A stretch of DNA of 64,000 nt, from positions 2,212 to 66,211 of the IMG/VR virus record IMGVR_UViG_3300011116_001234; one strand, written 5' to 3'. This DNA is from a virus (taxonomy: Duplodnaviria; Caudoviricetes). The notes beneath the pieces are model-generated. The model saw only the letters and a list, made by a program, of their open reading frames with translations, searched no databases and was not told where the DNA came from. Positions 6,418 to 40,834 of the stretch are shown piece after piece; the stretch's first letter is position 1, and each line of letters opens with the position of its first letter. The position numbers and the translations under genes were made by a program.

Positions 6418-6466
6418 ACTTCTAACTATACCACGAAACCTTTCGGAACTACAATGTTTTTTGTTA

Positions 6467-6822
6467 GGTGGATCTAGAGGGAGTCGAACCCTCGTCCAGA
6501 AAAGCATCGAAACAAATCTACTACGCAATGTAGTTTGTCTTTATACTGTCTCATGACTTCAACAAACAAAACCCATGAGAAGCGTCTTTAGTGTCTTAAT
6601 CCCGTTTACAAATGACAAATCTAACGAGAAGCAATCTGATTGTTGACAAACCTACAACGTACAGATGGAACTTTGTAGGCCCGTCTAGGTCACTGTATCA
6701 AGCAGCGAGAGCTAGAGGTTGTGCGTTATCGTTTGCACTTACGTTTGCACATTGTTAGAGCGGCTATACCCCGCTGTTACGCAATTTGTTCTTATCTTCC
6801 CTGTCGAAACCTTTATAGACCC
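6467..6822 (-). ncRNA. ssrA: tmRNA, tag ANDNAQPLALAA
   Basis: GGGTCTA/TAGATCC acceptor with G3:U pair, TTCGACT T-loop, tag ORF 6736-6698. Confidence 0.95.
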
Positions 6823-14220: not shown

Positions 14221-15291
14221 TCATTTCATGCAAAGATATCTGTCAGACACGTACTTCAATGCTACTCGACCATGCCGAGAATCAAAACGTTCACCATGTT
14301 CCAGTTTTACAACAATACCTTCCCGAACTTTTTGACCGGGATAAATGCTATCGTCTTCAGCAATCACTTCTAGGAGAATACCGTTGAGAGGGCCACGATA
14401 GAGAACATGAACAGTCTCAAGAAGACCATCAGAATATACAGGGTTATCAAACAACTCAGCGTTGTCAACCCACTTGCCATGATCCAAAATGTCAAAGGCC
14501 GCAAATCCGTATTGGCCTTGAGTTTTTCCATAATGGAAGTCGATTCCTTGGACGTTGGGTCCATATACTTCACCATAAATAGCCATGTTGGGATGATTTC
14601 TGCACCATTCCTCAATCCAAGGATTCTGAGATAGTGCAGTCCACCAAGCACACTCTGGAGCCGTAATGGTCTTCGTTACTTCGATACCATTCTCGTCAGT
14701 ATAGGTCACATCCTTTATATGGGTTCCCGGCTTCATCTTCCATGTGGTACGTGAACCACAATGCATCTCACCATCATGATAAACATAACGAGCATTCGTA
14801 CCGTGAACCTTTTCAGTAAGAATCACACGCTCATCCTCATTAAACAGTTTGTGAAACTTACGGAAGTTTTCAAGATCATAGTGCGGCACGGTAATGTCTG
14901 GACCCTTTGCTTGCACTCCAGAAGCCATCCCAGAGCCTTTTGGAGCGGGTGGTTCCCATCGTTCAACACCAAGTAGCTCCATGACATTATCGCCCTCTAC
15001 AGAGCCTTCTGGAGCCGGGATAAGCAATCCATATGAAGGTTCGCCACGGAACCGACGCATGGTAATACGTTGCCATTCCTTGCCCTTGCCATCGTCAAGA
15101 AAACGAAACTCATTACGAGTGATGTTTACCTTGTAATCTGGCTCGACATAGGCCATGAGCTGACCAACTTTGTGTGCTCCTTTGCGGATAACACATTGGT
15201 AGCCCCATACGTTTGTGAGTTCTAGCGCATCAGCATTGGGATGTGGCAGGATAGATTCGATGCGAATAACTTTTACTTCGTGTGTGCTCAT
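14221..15291 (-). CDS. ATP-dependent RNA ligase, DRB0094-like
   Basis: N-terminal HPNADALE OB-like domain, EKVHGTN, YGEVYG, AFDI, REGIVVK. Confidence 0.9.
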   Translation of the reverse strand: MSTHEVKVIRIESILPHPNADALELTNVWGYQCVIRKGAHKVGQLMAYVEPDYKVNITRNEFRFLDDGKGKEWQRITMRRFRGEPSYGLLIPAPEGSVEGDNVMELLGVERWEPPAPKGSGMASGVQAKGPDITVPHYDLENFRKFHKLFNEDERVILTEKVHGTNARYVYHDGEMHCGSRTTWKMKPGTHIKDVTYTDENGIEVTKTITAPECAWWTALSQNPWIEEWCRNHPNMAIYGEVYGPNVQGIDFHYGKTQGQYGFAAFDILDHGKWVDNAELFDNPVYSDGLLETVHVLYRGPLNGILLEVIAEDDSIYPGQKVREGIVVKLEHGERFDSRHGRVALKYVSDRYLCMK

Positions 15292-19443: not shown

Positions 19444-19444
19444 T

Positions 19445-19498
19445 GAACCGATAACATCACGTTGGAAGCGTGAGGTTTTACCATTAAACTAACCCCGC
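19445..19498 (-). pseudogene. Truncated tRNA-Gly(TCC)
   Basis: Intact up to ATCGGTTC; 3' T-stem and acceptor strand missing. Confidence 0.8.
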
Positions 19499-19501
19499 AA
19501 G

Positions 19502-19573
19502 TAGGCGCAACTAGATTTGAACTCGTATGAACAATGTGAAAAACTGTTATCCTAACCATTAGATGATGGAACC
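19502..19573 (-). pseudogene. Degenerate tRNA-Glu(TTC)
   Basis: D and anticodon arms present; acceptor and T stems mispaired. Confidence 0.7.
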
Positions 19574-20867: not shown

Positions 20868-20942
20868 TAGCCACAGTGGGATTCGAACCCACACTTTGGA
20901 GATTTTAAGTCTCCTGCCTGCTGCCGGTTGGGCTATGTGGCC
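20868..20942 (-). tRNA. tRNA-Leu(TAA), short variable arm
   Basis: Cloverleaf, CTTAAAA loop; own TTTACA-17-TAGAGT promoter. Confidence 0.9.
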
Positions 20943-21053
20943 GTTTGTTATATCTTTACTCTAACACTTCTTTTTCAGATTGTAAATCTATTTCTTTTTG
21001 CGGTATACTTATTTATAGTGTCGAATCAATGCCTCTGCCATATGGAGTATACT

Positions 21054-21851
21054 ATGCCTAAATCTAAAACTTGGACAGATGACCAACTAATCTTTGCTGT
21101 AAAATCTTCTTATTCTATTGCTAGCGTTCTTTTGCAGCTTGGTTTGAAAGCTACTGGTGGTAACTATAAAACCATTCAAAATGCCGTAAAACGTTTGCAG
21201 CTAAATACATCACATTGGACAGGCAAAGGACATTTACGAGGAAAAACTCATAACTGGGCTCCTATGAGGGATTTTGAAGATATTTTAGTTGAAGATAGCA
21301 ACTACGTTTCTACTTTCAGTTTGAAACATCGCTTGTTAAGGGCGAATCTTTTATCTTATGAATGTTCAGTTTGTCATATATCTTCTTGGCAAGGCAAAGA
21401 ACTAGCCTTGCAACTAGATCACATAAATGGGATAAACAACGATCATCGTTTGGAAAACTTAAGGTTGTTATGTCCTAACTGTCATTCACAAACAGATACA
21501 TTTGCGGGAAAGAATAAAAAGAAGATGGTAGGGCCGGAGGGACTTGAACCCCCAGTTGCGATTTCCGCTGCTGCTCTTGAGGCAGCCGTGTCTGCCATTC
21601 CACCACGACCCCAGAATCAATGCAATAAATGTCAAAGACCTATTCAAAAACGTTCAAACAGATGCACGTATTGTAAAACAGATGAAAAGATTGTTTGGCC
21701 CTCGAAAGAGGAACTTGAAAAGTTAGTTTGGTCAACATCGTGTTCAAAACTATCACAACAACTTGGTGTTTCTGATAAGGCTATTGAAAAACGATGTAAA
21801 AAACTAGGTATTTCGAAACCTCCAAGGGGCTATTGGGCCAAACAACATTAG
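21054..21851 (+). CDS. HNH homing endonuclease with C-terminal Zn finger and HTH
   Basis: LQLDHING..NDHRLENLRLLCPNCH; GGAG before 21054. Confidence 0.92.
   Translation: MPKSKTWTDDQLIFAVKSSYSIASVLLQLGLKATGGNYKTIQNAVKRLQLNTSHWTGKGHLRGKTHNWAPMRDFEDILVEDSNYVSTFSLKHRLLRANLLSYECSVCHISSWQGKELALQLDHINGINNDHRLENLRLLCPNCHSQTDTFAGKNKKKMVGPEGLEPPVAISAAALEAAVSAIPPRPQNQCNKCQRPIQKRSNRCTYCKTDEKIVWPSKEELEKLVWSTSCSKLSQQLGVSDKAIEKRCKKLGISKPPRGYWAKQH
21526..21612 (-). tRNA. tRNA-Leu(CAA), antisense inside the HNH ORF
   Basis: Full 87-nt class II cloverleaf with CCA. Confidence 0.92.
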
Positions 21852-39129: not shown

Positions 39130-39516
39130 ATGAGATTAACAGTAAGACAACTAAAAGGTTTGATTAGAGAAGCGATGGAAGATGCCACCTCTGGTGGTTT
39201 TGCCTTGTTTCTTGGCCATAGTAGCACAAATATTAGTGATATTGTGGGCGTGTTTGAAACAAGAGCAGAAGCAGAAGCAGCAAAACAAAAATGCGGTGGT
39301 GCTGGCATTATTGTAAAAGCACCAATCAACCCATCAGACGAACAAATCGCTGCCCACCTTGAAGATAAAGGTCACTTCAAAGCAGCAATGAAGCTCAAAG
39401 GTGATACCGAAGGTTTGGCATCATGGGAAAAAACGGAAGCCGAAAGATACGCCGCTGGAGAAGCTTATAGAGCAAATCTAGCAGCTAAGAGAGCAGCTAG
39501 AGCAGCAAAACGCTAA
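39130..39516 (+). CDS. Hypothetical protein with LKGLIRE tag
   Basis: AAGGAG upstream, terminator downstream. Confidence 0.8.
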   Translation: MRLTVRQLKGLIREAMEDATSGGFALFLGHSSTNISDIVGVFETRAEAEAAKQKCGGAGIIVKAPINPSDEQIAAHLEDKGHFKAAMKLKGDTEGLASWEKTEAERYAAGEAYRANLAAKRAARAAKR

Positions 39517-39541
39517 ACAATACTCTATAAAAGAAAATAAC

Positions 39542-39574
39542 AAAGGCACCAAGGTTATCCCTTTGGTGCCTTTT
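39542..39574. terminator. Bidirectional terminator
   Basis: AAAGGCACCAA...TTGGTGCCTTTT. Confidence 0.85.
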
Positions 39575-39584
39575 CTGTTTTATT

Positions 39585-39635
39585 TGGAGCCGAGTGTGAG
39601 ATTCGAACTCACGGTGTTTATATTCCAGTTACCAA
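39585..39635 (-). pseudogene. 3' half of tRNA-Thr(GGT)
   Basis: TTGGTAA CTGGA...GTGAG TTCGAAT CTCAC ACTCGGC T CCA. Confidence 0.8.
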
Positions 39636-40168
39636 TTTTTACCTTGCCGATAACGTTCCATACGTTTAGAACGTCCGTTTCCTTTGTTTAGATTGCGATA
39701 ATTTGGTGTAAGAGAATGATGATTTGGACAAAGCAATTCTAGATTAGATGCTTCTTTATTATCAGCGTTTCCATCGATATGATTTAGTTCAATAGGCACA
39801 GTGCCAGTTATCGGATGAACTTCGCACCAACCACAATTCTCTCTCATACATTTTGCTCCATATAAGTTTATGAGATGCCTACGTAAAGCAGGATTTGATA
39901 ACTTCAACAAGTCATCTTTTGTTCTGGTGTTCTTTACGAAATTTTGCTGACATTTATTGTCACAATAAACTTTTTTATTGTGACTCAGTTCACTCTTACA
40001 AAAGAGACAAAATTTTATCTCTTTTGGAGTGAGATTTTTATCTCTCAATCCTTTTGGGAATCTTCTTTTGCCGCTATATCTTGAAGCGCAACTTTGTTGA
40101 CAAAACTTCCTATTCTTTTCTTTTGCATTGAATGCATTCCCACATTCTAAACAGTCGAACTTATACAT
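39629..40168 (-). CDS. HNH endonuclease with N-terminal Zn fingers
   Basis: IELNHIDGN..N...SNLELLCPNHH; CTAGTTA motif upstream. Confidence 0.9.
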   Translation of the reverse strand: MYKFDCLECGNAFNAKEKNRKFCQQSCASRYSGKRRFPKGLRDKNLTPKEIKFCLFCKSELSHNKKVYCDNKCQQNFVKNTRTKDDLLKLSNPALRRHLINLYGAKCMRENCGWCEVHPITGTVPIELNHIDGNADNKEASNLELLCPNHHSLTPNYRNLNKGNGRSKRMERYRQGKNW

Positions 40169-40221
40169 AAGACCTCTTGTGATATAACTAGTGGTCTATC
40201 TGACTTAAGTAATAAGAAAAA

Positions 40222-40296
40222 TGGAGCCCACTATCCGACTTGAACGGATGACCCCCTCATTACAAGTGAGGAGCTCTACCACTGAGCTAAGTGGGC
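40222..40296 (-). tRNA. tRNA-Thr(TGT)
   Basis: Canonical cloverleaf with CCA. Confidence 0.95.
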
Positions 40297-40308
40297 TAAA
40301 AACTATAA

Positions 40309-40341
40309 AAGTGGTGCAATCGACCTCTATGCAAACCCGGC
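40309..40341 (-). pseudogene. 5' half of tRNA-Thr
   Basis: GCCGGGT pairs with ACTCGGC of the 3' half; D arm GCA TAGAGGTCGAT TGC. Confidence 0.72.
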
Positions 40342-40350
40342 TTAATGTTG

Positions 40351-40421
40351 TGGACCGTGGCAGAGTCGAACTGCCGAAAACTGGATGCAAACCAGCTATT
40401 TTCCCACTAAATTAACGGCCC
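40351..40421 (-). tRNA. tRNA-Ala(TGC)
   Basis: G3:U70 pair, TTTGCAT loop. Confidence 0.88.
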
Positions 40422-40501
40422 AACAAAGGAGAAGCTTTTTGTTTCGACAGCGTAATGGCTGGTTTCCAGCTTCCCCTTTATGTATCATCTAAGTAGTGTG
40501 A

Positions 40502-40834
40502 TCAGAATGATTCTGCTCGTTCTTGTAGTCTTTGTGTAATAGATTCGACAGCTTCGTTTAGTGTTGCATCACTTCCATGAAGACGATAATTACTCCAACC
40601 ATCTGTTAGACAACGATATTCATAAGTTGTTAGCTGTGGACTAATTTCTTGTAGAAGATGAACAGCTTCAATCTCGTTGCTATGATTTACAGTTTCCCAA
40701 GTAGAATGCCGTGCTCGGATACAGAAACGTCCAAGAATTTCTAGAAGGTTCCGATCTGTTTCGGAGAGCTTGCCAGTATTGCGAGTCGAACGAGCTACGG
40801 ATGCAGACTTTGTTGCCATTTTTTTATCTTTCAA
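40502..40834 (-). CDS. Hypothetical protein
   Basis: ORF; start uncertain. Confidence 0.6.
   Translation of the reverse strand: MKDKKMATKSASVARSTRNTGKLSETDRNLLEILGRFCIRARHSTWETVNHSNEIEAVHLLQEISPQLTTYEYRCLTDGWSNYRLHGSDATLNEAVESITQRLQERAESF

What the first reader, a model, noticed from the sequence alone, without database searches (positions are those of the whole stretch)
39585..40341. tRNA-Thr split at its anticodon loop by a cassette of intact tRNA-Thr plus HNH endonuclease
Seen, minus strand: tRNA 5' half (40341-40309), complete tRNA-Thr(TGT), TAGTTA motif, HNH gene, then a tRNA 3' half ending in CCA. The halves form a 7/7 acceptor stem (GCCGGGT/ACTCGGC, one G:U), and the HNH stop codon lies in the GGT anticodon loop. 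The anticodon stem pairs only 3 bp. Known: free-standing homing endonucleases such as T4 SegB sit in phage tRNA clusters. Inference: a non-intron mobile element that breaks a tRNA gene and offsets the loss by bringing an isoacceptor; alternatively the insert is removed at RNA level and the halves are ligated.
Basis: partly seen in the sequence, partly recalled or inferred. Interest (0 to 1): 0.88.

Follow-up and report, generated by a model that had tools for sequence, protein, structure and literature searches.

The report
Nuclease cassette with spare tRNA splits tRNA-Thr
A selfish DNA-cutting-enzyme gene that travels with its own threonine tRNA gene sits inside this water phage's original threonine tRNA gene and has broken it, while sister phages still carry that gene whole or have already lost the enzyme and kept only the spare tRNA.

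Summary
The layout is real. On the minus strand lie a 35-nt 5' piece of a tRNA, an intact tRNA-Thr(UGU), a 179-aa HNH gene and a 48-nt 3' piece ending in CCA.

The broken gene read UGU, not GGU. Eight of 8 related loci carry it whole at the same place. It is an unusual 81-84-nt tRNA-Thr(UGU) with an 11-12-nt variable region, scoring 51.6-54.3 bits in Rfam.

Three states of the locus exist:
- empty (the 8 loci);
- occupied (the window, plus 11.7- and 14.9-kb contigs from two other studies);
- enzyme lost (L101), with the same spare tRNA (75 of 75 bases) and a 25-nt 3' scar.

No group I core is present, although the same searches find one beside a relative of this enzyme. Joining the pieces gives a 6-base loop or a wrong anticodon.

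In 40 of 70 distinct relatives the nearest tRNA is tRNA-Thr(UGU). One relative splits a tRNA-Gly(GCC) in the same way.

Best reading: a free-standing homing endonuclease that breaks a tRNA gene and brings a replacement. I found no paper on this. This scan has noted the same layout on other DNA.

The parts
40350..40421 (-). tRNA-Ala(UGC), the upstream neighbour. It gives the context and synteny with the relatives.
   Evidence: ARAGORN. Rfam 58.4 bits. The same gene lies upstream of the intact tRNA-Thr in L003, L012, L015 and L016.
40307..40341 (-). 5' piece of the resident long-variable-region tRNA-Thr(UGU): acceptor strand, D arm, 5' strand of the anticodon stem and the first three loop bases.
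   Evidence: The first 27 nt are identical to the intact genes in L002 and L003. A 25-nt core is found in 6 metagenome loci. BLAST gives 40341-40304, 38 nt at 94.7-97.4%.
40297..40306 (-). 10-nt junction spacer between the 5' piece and the spare tRNA. Its first three bases resemble the lost loop, so the break point is ambiguous by 3 nt.
   Evidence: Sequence; alignments.
40222..40296 (-). Intact canonical tRNA-Thr(UGU) carried by the insert (the spare).
   Evidence: ARAGORN. Rfam 67.5 bits. It is 75 of 75 identical in L101, where it stands without the nuclease.
40169..40221 (-). 53-nt spacer holding the TAGTTA hexamer (40190-40185) and a Shine-Dalgarno-like AGAGG (40177-40173) ahead of the ATG.
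   Evidence: Sequence. No sigma-70-like site on the minus strand here.
39629..40168 (-). HNH endonuclease gene: 179 aa, two N-terminal zinc ribbons plus an HNH core. Its last codons and stop overlap the start of the 3' piece.
   Evidence: ORF. PHROG phrog_1271 'HNH endonuclease', E 1.7e-15. Pfam HNH_3 scores only 14.7 bits, below the 24.8 cut-off. His130, Asn142 and His151 are invariant in 20 aligned homologues. 242 homologues.
39585..39632 (-). 3' piece of the resident tRNA-Thr(UGU): the end of the loop, the 3' strand of the anticodon stem, the 12-nt variable region, the T arm, the acceptor strand, the discriminator and CCA.
   Evidence: Alignments (39630-39534, 84.5-93.8%). nhmmer hit to a tRNA profile covering the 3' half only.
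39542..39573 (.). 13-bp hairpin followed by a T run on both strands: the terminator after the tRNA. It is conserved in the relatives.
   Evidence: alignments.

Best explanation
A free-standing (intron-less) HNH homing-endonuclease gene, linked to its own canonical tRNA-Thr(UGU) gene, lies as a 673-674-bp insert in the anticodon loop of the phage's resident tRNA-Thr(UGU) gene. The resident gene is an unusual form with an 11-12-nt variable region.

Shown:
- the insert splits the resident gene;
- relatives carry that gene uninterrupted at the same site;
- other relatives carry the same occupied allele;
- one relative has lost the nuclease and kept the spare tRNA plus a scar.

Inferred:
- the enzyme cuts the DNA of the uninterrupted gene in or near the anticodon loop during mixed infection;
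- the break is repaired from the occupied allele, with the two tRNA pieces serving as homology arms, so the cassette is copied in;
- the broken tRNA is dead, and the spare tRNA with the same anticodon makes the disruption harmless. It plays the part that self-splicing plays for intron-borne relatives of the same enzyme;
- nuclease and spare tRNA are transcribed with the tRNA cluster up to the hairpin at 39573-39542, and excision of the spare tRNA from the transcript would free the nuclease mRNA.
For: 1. Empty allele. Eight of 8 loci found with 5'-piece patterns hold one contiguous tRNA-Thr(TGT) and no insert (2 in viral contigs; 6 in metagenome contigs; read). Rfam tRNA scores are 54.3 and 51.6 bits against a cut-off of 29. 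Among these alleles two stem pairs change on both sides at once: 30:40 is C-G or G-C, and a T-stem pair is G-C or A-T.

2. Synteny. tRNA-Ala lies upstream and the same hairpin lies downstream. For all 7 relatives tested, the two BLAST matches abut in the relative and lie 673 nt apart in the window.

3. Occupied allele elsewhere. An 11,677-nt contig in run X2 covers 39562-40341 with 8 differences. A 14,886-nt contig in run X7 covers 39585-40341 with 11 differences. The two runs belong to different studies. Both contigs hold about 1.5 kb of other DNA between the 5' piece and tRNA-Ala (tables 5 and 8). In X2 the three differences inside the ORF (40004, 40028, 40163) are third-codon-position and synonymous by my reading.

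4. Enzyme-lost state. L101 is syntenic with the window over about 10 kb (flanks 67-80% identical). It has the spare tRNA (75 of 75 identical), no nuclease, no 5' piece, and a 25-nt 3' remnant 11 nt after the tRNA.

5. No intron. No Intron_gpI hit at E<=10 in 39400-40600. The same tool finds a core (49.2 bits, E 1e-9) next to a relative of this enzyme in L083. A profile of that core finds L071 (E 2e-55) but nothing in the 64-kb window at E<=10. The ORF stop abuts the 3' piece, and only 63 non-tRNA, non-coding bases lie in the insert.

6. The junction does not restore the gene. Joining gives a 6-base loop, or a 7-base loop with the middle anticodon base changed. The window's stem has a C.C mismatch.

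7. Family habit. Of 70 distinct relatives of the enzyme in viral contigs, 68 have a tRNA within the 1.5-3 kb flanks. tRNA-Thr(TGT) is the nearest tRNA in 40 of the 70 (starting within 30 nt after the stop, or ending within 400 nt before the matched part), though it makes up only 54 of the 403 tRNAs in those loci.

8. Second case. In L080 a resident tRNA-Gly(GCC) has nt 28-40 replaced by [HNH + a different tRNA-Gly(GCC)]. Relative L099 has the gene whole at the same site.
Against: - No cleavage or homing was observed, so the target site is inferred from the position of the insert only.
- Both pieces are otherwise well kept, and in X2 and X7 the anticodon stem pairs 5 of 5. This is what a still-used split gene would also show, although the overall divergence is too low to tell.
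- By one reading the 5' exon ends in T and the insert ends in G, as in group I introns.
- The phage encodes an Rnl2-type RNA ligase (PF09414, 76.8 bits).
- All records are fragments (13-35% complete), so a second intact copy of either tRNA elsewhere cannot be excluded.
- The Pfam HNH match is below its cut-off and the fold search gave no match at E<=0.001.
- High identity of the spare tRNA between backgrounds may reflect selection on a tRNA and not recent transfer.
Confidence: 0.78

Rival explanations
1. The layout is a by-product of nuclease-provoked rearrangement between two tRNA-Thr genes of one phage or of co-infecting phages. Examples would be microhomology-mediated repair or segmental duplication, as described for SegB. 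On this view it is not a cassette that homes as a unit, and the nuclease may target another site or be inactive.
For: - An imperfect 6-base repeat of the loop flanks the insert, as microhomology-mediated joining would leave.
- SegB-driven amplification through microhomology between a tRNA gene and segB is documented (PMC13096335, passages read).
- Lone tRNA fragments lie beside relatives of the enzyme in L004/L005, L035, L019 and L056.
Against: - The same occupied allele, with both pieces, recurs at 98.5-99% identity in contigs of two other studies whose flanks differ.
- An enzyme-lost derivative exists in another background with a different T-stem type.
- An independent tRNA-Gly case has the same layout.
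Confidence: 0.12
2. The insert is removed at RNA level and the two pieces are joined into a working tRNA. This would need an unrecognised ribozyme, or host or phage nucleases plus the phage RNA ligase.
For: - Acceptor helix 7/7, and the anticodon stem 5/5 in X2 and X7.
- The T before and G at the end of the insert, in one register.
- An Rnl2-type ligase gene at window 14248-14829.
- Relatives of the enzyme do live in true group I introns at position 34/35 of phage tRNA genes (L083; L076 and L071 carry such an intron beside the enzyme).
Against: - No ribozyme core by Rfam or by the family-specific profile, and no room for one.
- Joining gives a 6-base loop or a changed anticodon.
- The window's stem has a C.C mismatch.
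- L101 lost most of both pieces and kept the spare tRNA.
- In the tRNA-Gly case the anticodon itself is deleted.
- No RtcB in the record, though the record is only a fragment.
Confidence: 0.05
3. The pieces are kept for another use. The acceptor/T-arm mini-helix formed by the two pieces could bracket the nuclease mRNA as an RNase P / 3'-end processing or stabilising signal.
For: The 3' piece keeps a perfect T arm, CCA and terminator. The acceptor strands pair 7/7 across the insert. The pieces are unchanged between the window, X2 and X7 except at one base.
Against: Divergence among these alleles is too low (about 1%) to show selection. L101 and L080 show that such pieces erode. There is no direct evidence.
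Confidence: 0.05

Closest known systems
Phage T4/T6 SegB, a free-standing homing endonuclease in the tRNA gene cluster (PMC2330249: abstract and passages read; PMC13096335: abstract, section 10 and passages read)
   Same: Both are free-standing nuclease genes among phage tRNA genes. SegB cuts inside tRNA genes of phages that lack it and is inherited with the neighbouring tRNA genes. Both families are statistically linked to tRNA genes.
   Different: SegB is GIY-YIG, whereas this enzyme is HNH. SegB recognises the T-arm motif and sits between genes. Here the gene sits inside a tRNA gene, at the anticodon loop, and brings a tRNA with the same anticodon as the one it destroys.
Group I introns with homing endonucleases in bacterial tRNA anticodon loops, e.g. 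the tRNA-fMet intron endonuclease of Bonocora & Shub 2001 (seen only as a reference in PMC3984707)
   Same: Both insert in the anticodon loop of a tRNA gene with a nuclease gene aboard. Relatives of this very enzyme family are found with such introns in phage tRNA genes (L083; L076/L071).
   Different: No ribozyme core is present here. Harmlessness would come from a spare gene, not from splicing. The 2014 review states that all phage introns then known were in protein genes (passage read).
Genes split by free-standing homing endonucleases, e.g. the ribonucleotide reductase gene split by mobE in an Aeromonas phage (recalled from memory; not seen in any call)
   Same: A free-standing nuclease gene lands inside a conserved gene and leaves it in two pieces.
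   Different: There the two protein halves still assemble into a working enzyme. Here the split product is an RNA that most likely cannot work, and a replacement gene travels with the nuclease.
Archaeal split and intron-bearing tRNA genes (PMC4390854: search listing only)
   Same: A tRNA gene in two pieces, broken in the anticodon loop.
   Different: Those are joined by a dedicated splicing endonuclease and ligase acting at a bulge-helix-bulge. Here nothing suggests joining.

Membership tests
HNH (beta-beta-alpha-metal) endonuclease | Significant match to a curated HNH profile | tested here: inconclusive
   PHROG phrog_1271 'HNH endonuclease' E 1.7e-15, with three further HNH PHROGs. Pfam HNH_3 scores only 14.7 bits against a cut-off of 24.8.
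HNH (beta-beta-alpha-metal) endonuclease | Catalytic His...Asn...His with flanking zinc-binding Cys/His | tested here: met
   His130, Asn142, His151 and Cys107, Cys112, Cys147 are invariant in the alignment of 20 homologues.
HNH (beta-beta-alpha-metal) endonuclease | Beta-beta-alpha fold resembling solved HNH nucleases | tested here: inconclusive
   AlphaFold model with mean pLDDT 76.8. The best Foldseek PDB hits are HNH nucleases (ScoMcrA, E 0.043), but 0 hits reach E<=0.001. A PDB sequence search found no HNH chain.
Free-standing homing endonuclease gene (intron-less homing) | Presence/absence polymorphism of the gene at one locus among related genomes | tested here: met
   Empty in 8 of 8 loci. 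Occupied in the window and in X2 and X7 contigs. Enzyme lost in L101.
Free-standing homing endonuclease gene (intron-less homing) | Not embedded in a self-splicing intron or an intein | tested here: met
   No group I hit and no hit to the family's own intron-core profile. The positive controls were L083 and L071. Group II introns were covered only by the Rfam scans.
Free-standing homing endonuclease gene (intron-less homing) | The enzyme cleaves the allele that lacks it, and the occupied allele is immune | not testable with these tools
   Needs purified protein and DNA substrates.
Free-standing homing endonuclease gene (intron-less homing) | Co-conversion of flanking markers | tested here: inconclusive
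   The window combines a 5' stem strand of one allele class (as in L012) with the 3' strand of the other (as in X2, X7 and L003). This is one base only, so a point mutation is not excluded.
Group I intron in a tRNA gene | Conserved ribozyme core (P3-P9) | tested here: not met
   Only 63 non-coding, non-tRNA bases lie in the insert.
Group I intron in a tRNA gene | Exon junction restores a normal tRNA | tested here: not met
   Joining gives a 6-base loop or a changed anticodon. ARAGORN calls the homology-based join with an abnormal anticodon.
SegB / GIY-YIG Seg family | GIY-YIG catalytic domain | tested here: not met
   Pfam lists only DUF2116 and HNH_3. The PHROG hits are all HNH or of unknown function.
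Archaeal-type split tRNA or bulge-helix-bulge intron | Bulge-helix-bulge motif at the exon-intron borders and a splicing endonuclease | not tested
   No fold of the borders was made. The window carries a tmRNA gene; that this points to a bacterial host is my inference.

The most novel reading that the evidence does not exclude
A large guild of HNH homing endonucleases colonises phage tRNA genes by 'break and replace'. Each enzyme cuts the anticodon-loop DNA of one kind of tRNA gene. It is inherited together with a differently built, presumably cut-resistant tRNA of the same anticodon. The spare gene does for these elements what self-splicing does for introns. The same enzyme family switches between this way of life and true group I introns at position 34/35 of phage tRNA genes. 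The cycle of invasion, fixation and enzyme loss steadily swaps one tRNA design for another in phage tRNA clusters.
Probability: 0.5. Interest if true: 0.8.

Novelty: new variant of a known kind. Interest (0 to 1): 0.7.

Why it matters
Homing endonucleases are thought to live in essential genes only if an intron or intein removes them from the product, or to sit between genes. Here a third solution appears: occupy a conserved RNA gene, destroy it, and carry a replacement.

This would explain several things:
- why nuclease genes and tRNA genes are so tightly linked in large phages;
- why phage tRNA clusters hold tRNA fragments and duplicate isoacceptors;
- how differently built tRNAs, here a canonical and a long-variable-region tRNA-Thr, replace one another.

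The three states found at one locus make the homing cycle directly testable with two PCR products and one expressed protein. The family also gives a natural set of enzymes that may recognise specific anticodon-loop DNA.

Tried and rejected
- ARAGORN with introns up to 1500 nt did not call the split gene. At an 80% threshold it gave only implausible calls.
- The first join script gave no answer and was rerun smaller.
- Phage GenBank records hold no close relative. 79 records matched, none over 80% of the 2-kb query. The matches were tRNA genes and a 151-nt stretch of an HNH gene at 70.9%.
- The exact 3'-piece pattern found nothing in viral contigs.
- The relatives' records G001 and G002 lack the spare tRNA and the nuclease, but they are 35% and 15% complete.
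- Promoter scan: no sigma-70-like site ahead of the nuclease on the minus strand, and the counts are no higher than in shuffles.
- PDB sequence search: no HNH chain. Foldseek: only weak HNH hits.
- Two core motifs of the L083/L076 intron: 0 matches, and 2 chance-level matches elsewhere in the window.
- RtcB: none in the record. The T4 Rnl1 family search rang in no control genome either, so it says nothing.
- No RNA holder is listed among the public runs, so expression and any ligated junction could not be examined.
- Parts of 39300-40700 without cover in the laid contigs are not used as evidence.
- Earlier-findings look-ups by place and by sequence returned nothing.
- Seven literature searches found no description of a nuclease-plus-tRNA cassette inside a phage tRNA gene. 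The neighbourhood tables of PMC13096335 might list similar fragments.

Full report
**What is in the sequence.** All features lie on the minus strand:
- tRNA-Ala(UGC), 40421-40350.
- After 8 nt, a 35-nt stretch (40341-40307). It has a tRNA acceptor strand, a D arm, the 5' strand of an anticodon stem and three loop bases.
- A 10-nt spacer.
- An intact tRNA-Thr(UGU), 40296-40222 (ARAGORN; Rfam 67.5 bits).
- A 53-nt spacer with a Shine-Dalgarno-like AGAGG.
- A 179-codon ORF, 40168-39629.
- A 48-nt stretch (39632-39585) that overlaps the ORF's last codons. It holds the 3' strand of an anticodon stem, a 12-nt variable region, a perfect T arm, an acceptor strand that pairs 7/7 with the 5' stretch, a discriminator and CCA.
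- A 13-bp hairpin with T runs (39573-39542).

The window is part of a 66-kb viral record estimated to be 27% complete. It carries 13 tRNA genes and a tmRNA gene.

**The pieces are halves of one real gene.**
- A 27-nt pattern from the 5' piece found two viral contigs. A 25-nt pattern found six metagenome contigs.
- In all 8 loci the 5' piece runs straight on into the 3' piece. Together they form an 81-84-nt tRNA-Thr with anticodon TGT and an 11-12-nt variable region. Rfam scores are 54.3 and 51.6 bits against a cut-off of 29.
- The locus is the same. tRNA-Ala lies upstream (directly in L012, L015 and L016; after a small ORF in L003) and the same hairpin lies downstream.
- For all 7 relatives tested by BLAST, the two matches abut in the relative. 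In the window they lie at 40341-40304 and 39630-39534.
The anticodon was UGU, however, not GGU. The 'GGT' belongs to the last codons of the ORF.
- Among the intact alleles two stem pairs differ on both sides at once: 30:40 is C-G or G-C, and one T-stem pair is G-C or A-T. This speaks for a working tRNA.

**The break point.**
- Exact homology of the 5' piece ends at 40307, after the first anticodon base. It resumes at 39632, one A short of the original loop.
- Alternatively the 5' piece runs to 40304 with the middle anticodon base changed, and the 3' piece starts at 39630.
- Either way the insert is 673-674 bp and is flanked by an imperfect 6-base repeat of the loop.
- Either way, simple joining gives a 6-base loop or a wrong anticodon.
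- ARAGORN called a tRNA in 102 of 462 script-made joins. All were about 82 nt or longer, and the homology-based join got an abnormal two-base anticodon. In intron mode it does not call the gene at all.

**The ORF is an HNH endonuclease.**
- PHROG phrog_1271 'HNH endonuclease' matches at E 1.7e-15. Pfam HNH_3 is below its cut-off, at 14.7 against 24.8 bits.
- Among 242 homologues, an alignment of 20 keeps the His-Asn-His residues and the zinc-binding cysteines invariant, behind two N-terminal zinc ribbons.
- The predicted fold (pLDDT 76.8) has HNH nucleases as its best PDB matches, but none at E<=0.001.

**It is not an intron.**
- Rfam found no group I hit at E<=10 in 39400-40600.
- The method works for this family. 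In L083 a relative of the enzyme sits in a group I intron (Intron_gpI 49.2 bits, E 1e-9) that interrupts a tRNA-Ser(UGA) between anticodon positions 34 and 35.
- In L076/L071 an ORF-less intron with the same core interrupts a tRNA-Arg(UCU) at 34/35, directly after the nuclease gene.
- A profile of this core finds L071 at E 2e-55 and nothing in the whole window at E<=10.
- In the window the ORF's stop abuts the 3' piece, and the insert holds only 63 bases that are neither tRNA nor coding.

**Three states of one locus.**
- *Empty:* the 8 loci above.
- *Occupied:* the window, plus contigs of independent public runs.
  - An 11.7-kb contig in X2 covers 39562-40341 with 8 differences. A 14.9-kb contig in X7 covers 39585-40341 with 11. 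The two runs belong to different studies.
  - Both contigs have about 1.5 kb of other DNA between the 5' piece and tRNA-Ala. Both run on unlike the window beyond the hairpin (tables 5, 7 and 8).
  - Shorter contigs in X3 (39610-40280) and X11 (39589-39999) cover parts of the insert.
  - In X2 and X7 base 40311 is changed, so the two stem strands pair 5 of 5. The window carries the 5' strand of the other allele class and so has a C.C mismatch. This is what a short co-conversion tract would give, but a single base cannot prove it.
  - The three X2 differences inside the ORF are synonymous by my reading.
- *Enzyme lost:* L101 is syntenic with the window from about 32.6 to 42.9 kb, with flanks 67-80% identical.
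  - It has the same spare tRNA-Thr (75 of 75), then 11 nt, then a 25-nt remnant of the resident gene's T arm and acceptor strand.
  - It has no nuclease gene and no 5' piece.
  - Its 29.7-kb record holds no other copy of the long-variable tRNA.
  - Its remnant has the other T-stem type, so the spare tRNA is seen with both allele classes.

This series is what the cycle of a homing element predicts: invasion, fixation and loss of the nuclease. It also shows that the spare tRNA, not the broken one, is what is kept.

**The enzyme family lives with tRNA genes.**
- A profile search of viral contigs found 531 relatives, of which the best 80 were fetched. Another 5 came from a single-sequence search.
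- Of the 85 loci, 83 have a tRNA in the 1.5-3 kb flanks.
- After removing identical proteins, 70 remain, and 68 of them have a tRNA in the locus.
- In 33 of the 70 a tRNA starts within 30 nt after the stop.
- tRNA-Thr(TGT) is the immediate neighbour in 40 of the 70, and tRNA-Gly(GCC) in 13. tRNA-Thr(TGT) is only 54 of the 403 tRNAs in these loci.
- Many of these neighbours are long tRNA-Thr(UGU) genes of 81-88 nt with the same D arm as the window's broken gene.

**A second, independent case.** L080 reads: 5' piece, nuclease, intact tRNA-Gly(GCC), 3' piece (Rfam 66.3 bits for the intact tRNA). Its relative L099 has, at the syntenic site, one whole tRNA-Gly(GCC) made of exactly these pieces. In L080 nucleotides 28-40, anticodon included, are replaced by the cassette, so rejoining cannot restore that gene. 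Again the tRNA brought in has the anticodon of the tRNA destroyed. Lone tRNA fragments lie beside other relatives (L004/L005, L035, L019, L056). I did not analyse these further.

**How it most likely works.**
- *Shown:* the insert, its absence in relatives, its recurrence, the loss of the enzyme, the absence of a ribozyme, and the family's link to tRNA genes.
- *Inferred:*
  - The enzyme cuts the DNA of the uninterrupted tRNA-Thr gene in or next to the anticodon loop.
  - Repair from an occupied genome copies the cassette in, with the two pieces as homology arms.
  - The broken gene is dead, and the spare tRNA-Thr(UGU) makes the insertion harmless.
  - The nuclease is transcribed with the tRNA cluster, and its mRNA is freed when the spare tRNA is cut out.

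I put this reading at 0.78. The rivals are:
- a one-off rearrangement provoked by a nuclease, not a unit that homes (0.12);
- RNA-level removal and ligation (0.05). The phage does encode an Rnl2-type RNA ligase, but the junction, L101 and L080 speak against it;
- a remaining use of the pieces as processing signals (0.05).

**Comparison with what is known.** It works like intron-less homing by free-standing phage endonucleases.
- The nearest case is T4/T6 SegB. It sits among tRNA genes, cuts tRNA genes at the T-arm motif and is inherited with its neighbours (PMC2330249, abstract and passages; PMC13096335, abstract, section 10 and passages).
- It is not a member of that family, because the catalytic domain is HNH, not GIY-YIG.
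- It shares its site with group I introns of bacterial tRNA genes, but fails both tests of an intron.
- A 2014 review states that all phage introns then known were in protein genes, despite the many phage tRNA genes (PMC3984707, passage). L083 and L076/L071 are therefore notable in their own right.
- Seven full-text searches found no paper on a nuclease-plus-tRNA cassette inside a tRNA gene. Supplements were closed.
- This scan has noted the same 'split and replace' layout on other DNA: 72 notes in at least 66 genomes hold the search words. I did not check those.

**Verdict.** It is a new variant of a known kind of element.

Noticed in passing
L024 1195-1275; L035 882-966; L036 1219-1300; L046 1379-1462; L048 1177-1259 and 2048-2131; L050 845-929; L061 1988-2069; L071/L076 756-840 and 1160-1247; L072 612-697; L082/L092 2088-2171; L090 1928-2011: A recurrent phage tRNA-Thr(UGU) design of 81-88 nt. 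It has a long variable region, often a small hairpin, and a shared D arm. The window's broken gene is of this kind. It often stands next to the HNH gene, sometimes together with a canonical tRNA-Thr(UGU).
   Followed up: partly
L083 1395-2160: A tRNA-Ser(UGA) gene of a phage contig is interrupted between anticodon positions 34 and 35 by a group I intron (Rfam 49.2 bits, E 1e-9). The intron carries a relative of the HNH gene near its 5' end. A 2014 review said no phage intron was then known in a tRNA gene.
   Followed up: partly
L076 and L071 2005-2290: An ORF-less group I intron of about 210 nt, with the same core as in L083, lies in a tRNA-Arg(UCU) gene at 34/35. The gene starts directly after the stop of the HNH gene. 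Rfam did not report this intron at E<=0.1.
   Followed up: partly
L080 1392-1987; L099 7643-7716: A second split-and-replace case. A resident tRNA-Gly(GCC) has nt 28-40 replaced by [HNH + a different tRNA-Gly(GCC)]. The gene is whole at the syntenic site in L099.
   Followed up: yes
window 20928-21851 (+): A second HNH endonuclease gene (phrog_10822, E 2.9e-55) lies in the main tRNA cluster, on the strand opposite to the tRNAs. Its ORF overlaps, antisense, the predicted tRNA-Leu(CAA) at 21526-21612.
   Followed up: partly
window 19444-19499 (-): A tRNA-Gly(UCC)-like sequence has a good 5' two-thirds but no matching T arm or acceptor strand. It is probably a truncated tRNA pseudogene. It lies next to a weak tRNA at 19502-19573 (Rfam 36.5 bits).
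   Followed up: no
window 14248-14829 (-): An Rnl2-type RNA ligase domain (PF09414, 76.8 bits) lies in a 360-aa open frame, about 2 kb from the main tRNA cluster.
   Followed up: no
window 6466-6822 (-): A phage-borne tmRNA gene (Rfam 127.2 bits) with tag peptide ANDNAQPLALAA.
   Followed up: no
L004/L005 about 2866-2891; L035 2062-2098; L019 2017-2049; L056 1968-1998: Lone tRNA 5' or 3' fragments lie directly beside relatives of the HNH gene, with no partner piece found. They may be scars of earlier insertions.
   Followed up: no
L082/L092 1068-1233: A tRNA-like gene whose acceptor, D-arm and T-arm parts are separated by an insert of about 65 nt of unknown nature, just upstream of the HNH gene.
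   Followed up: no
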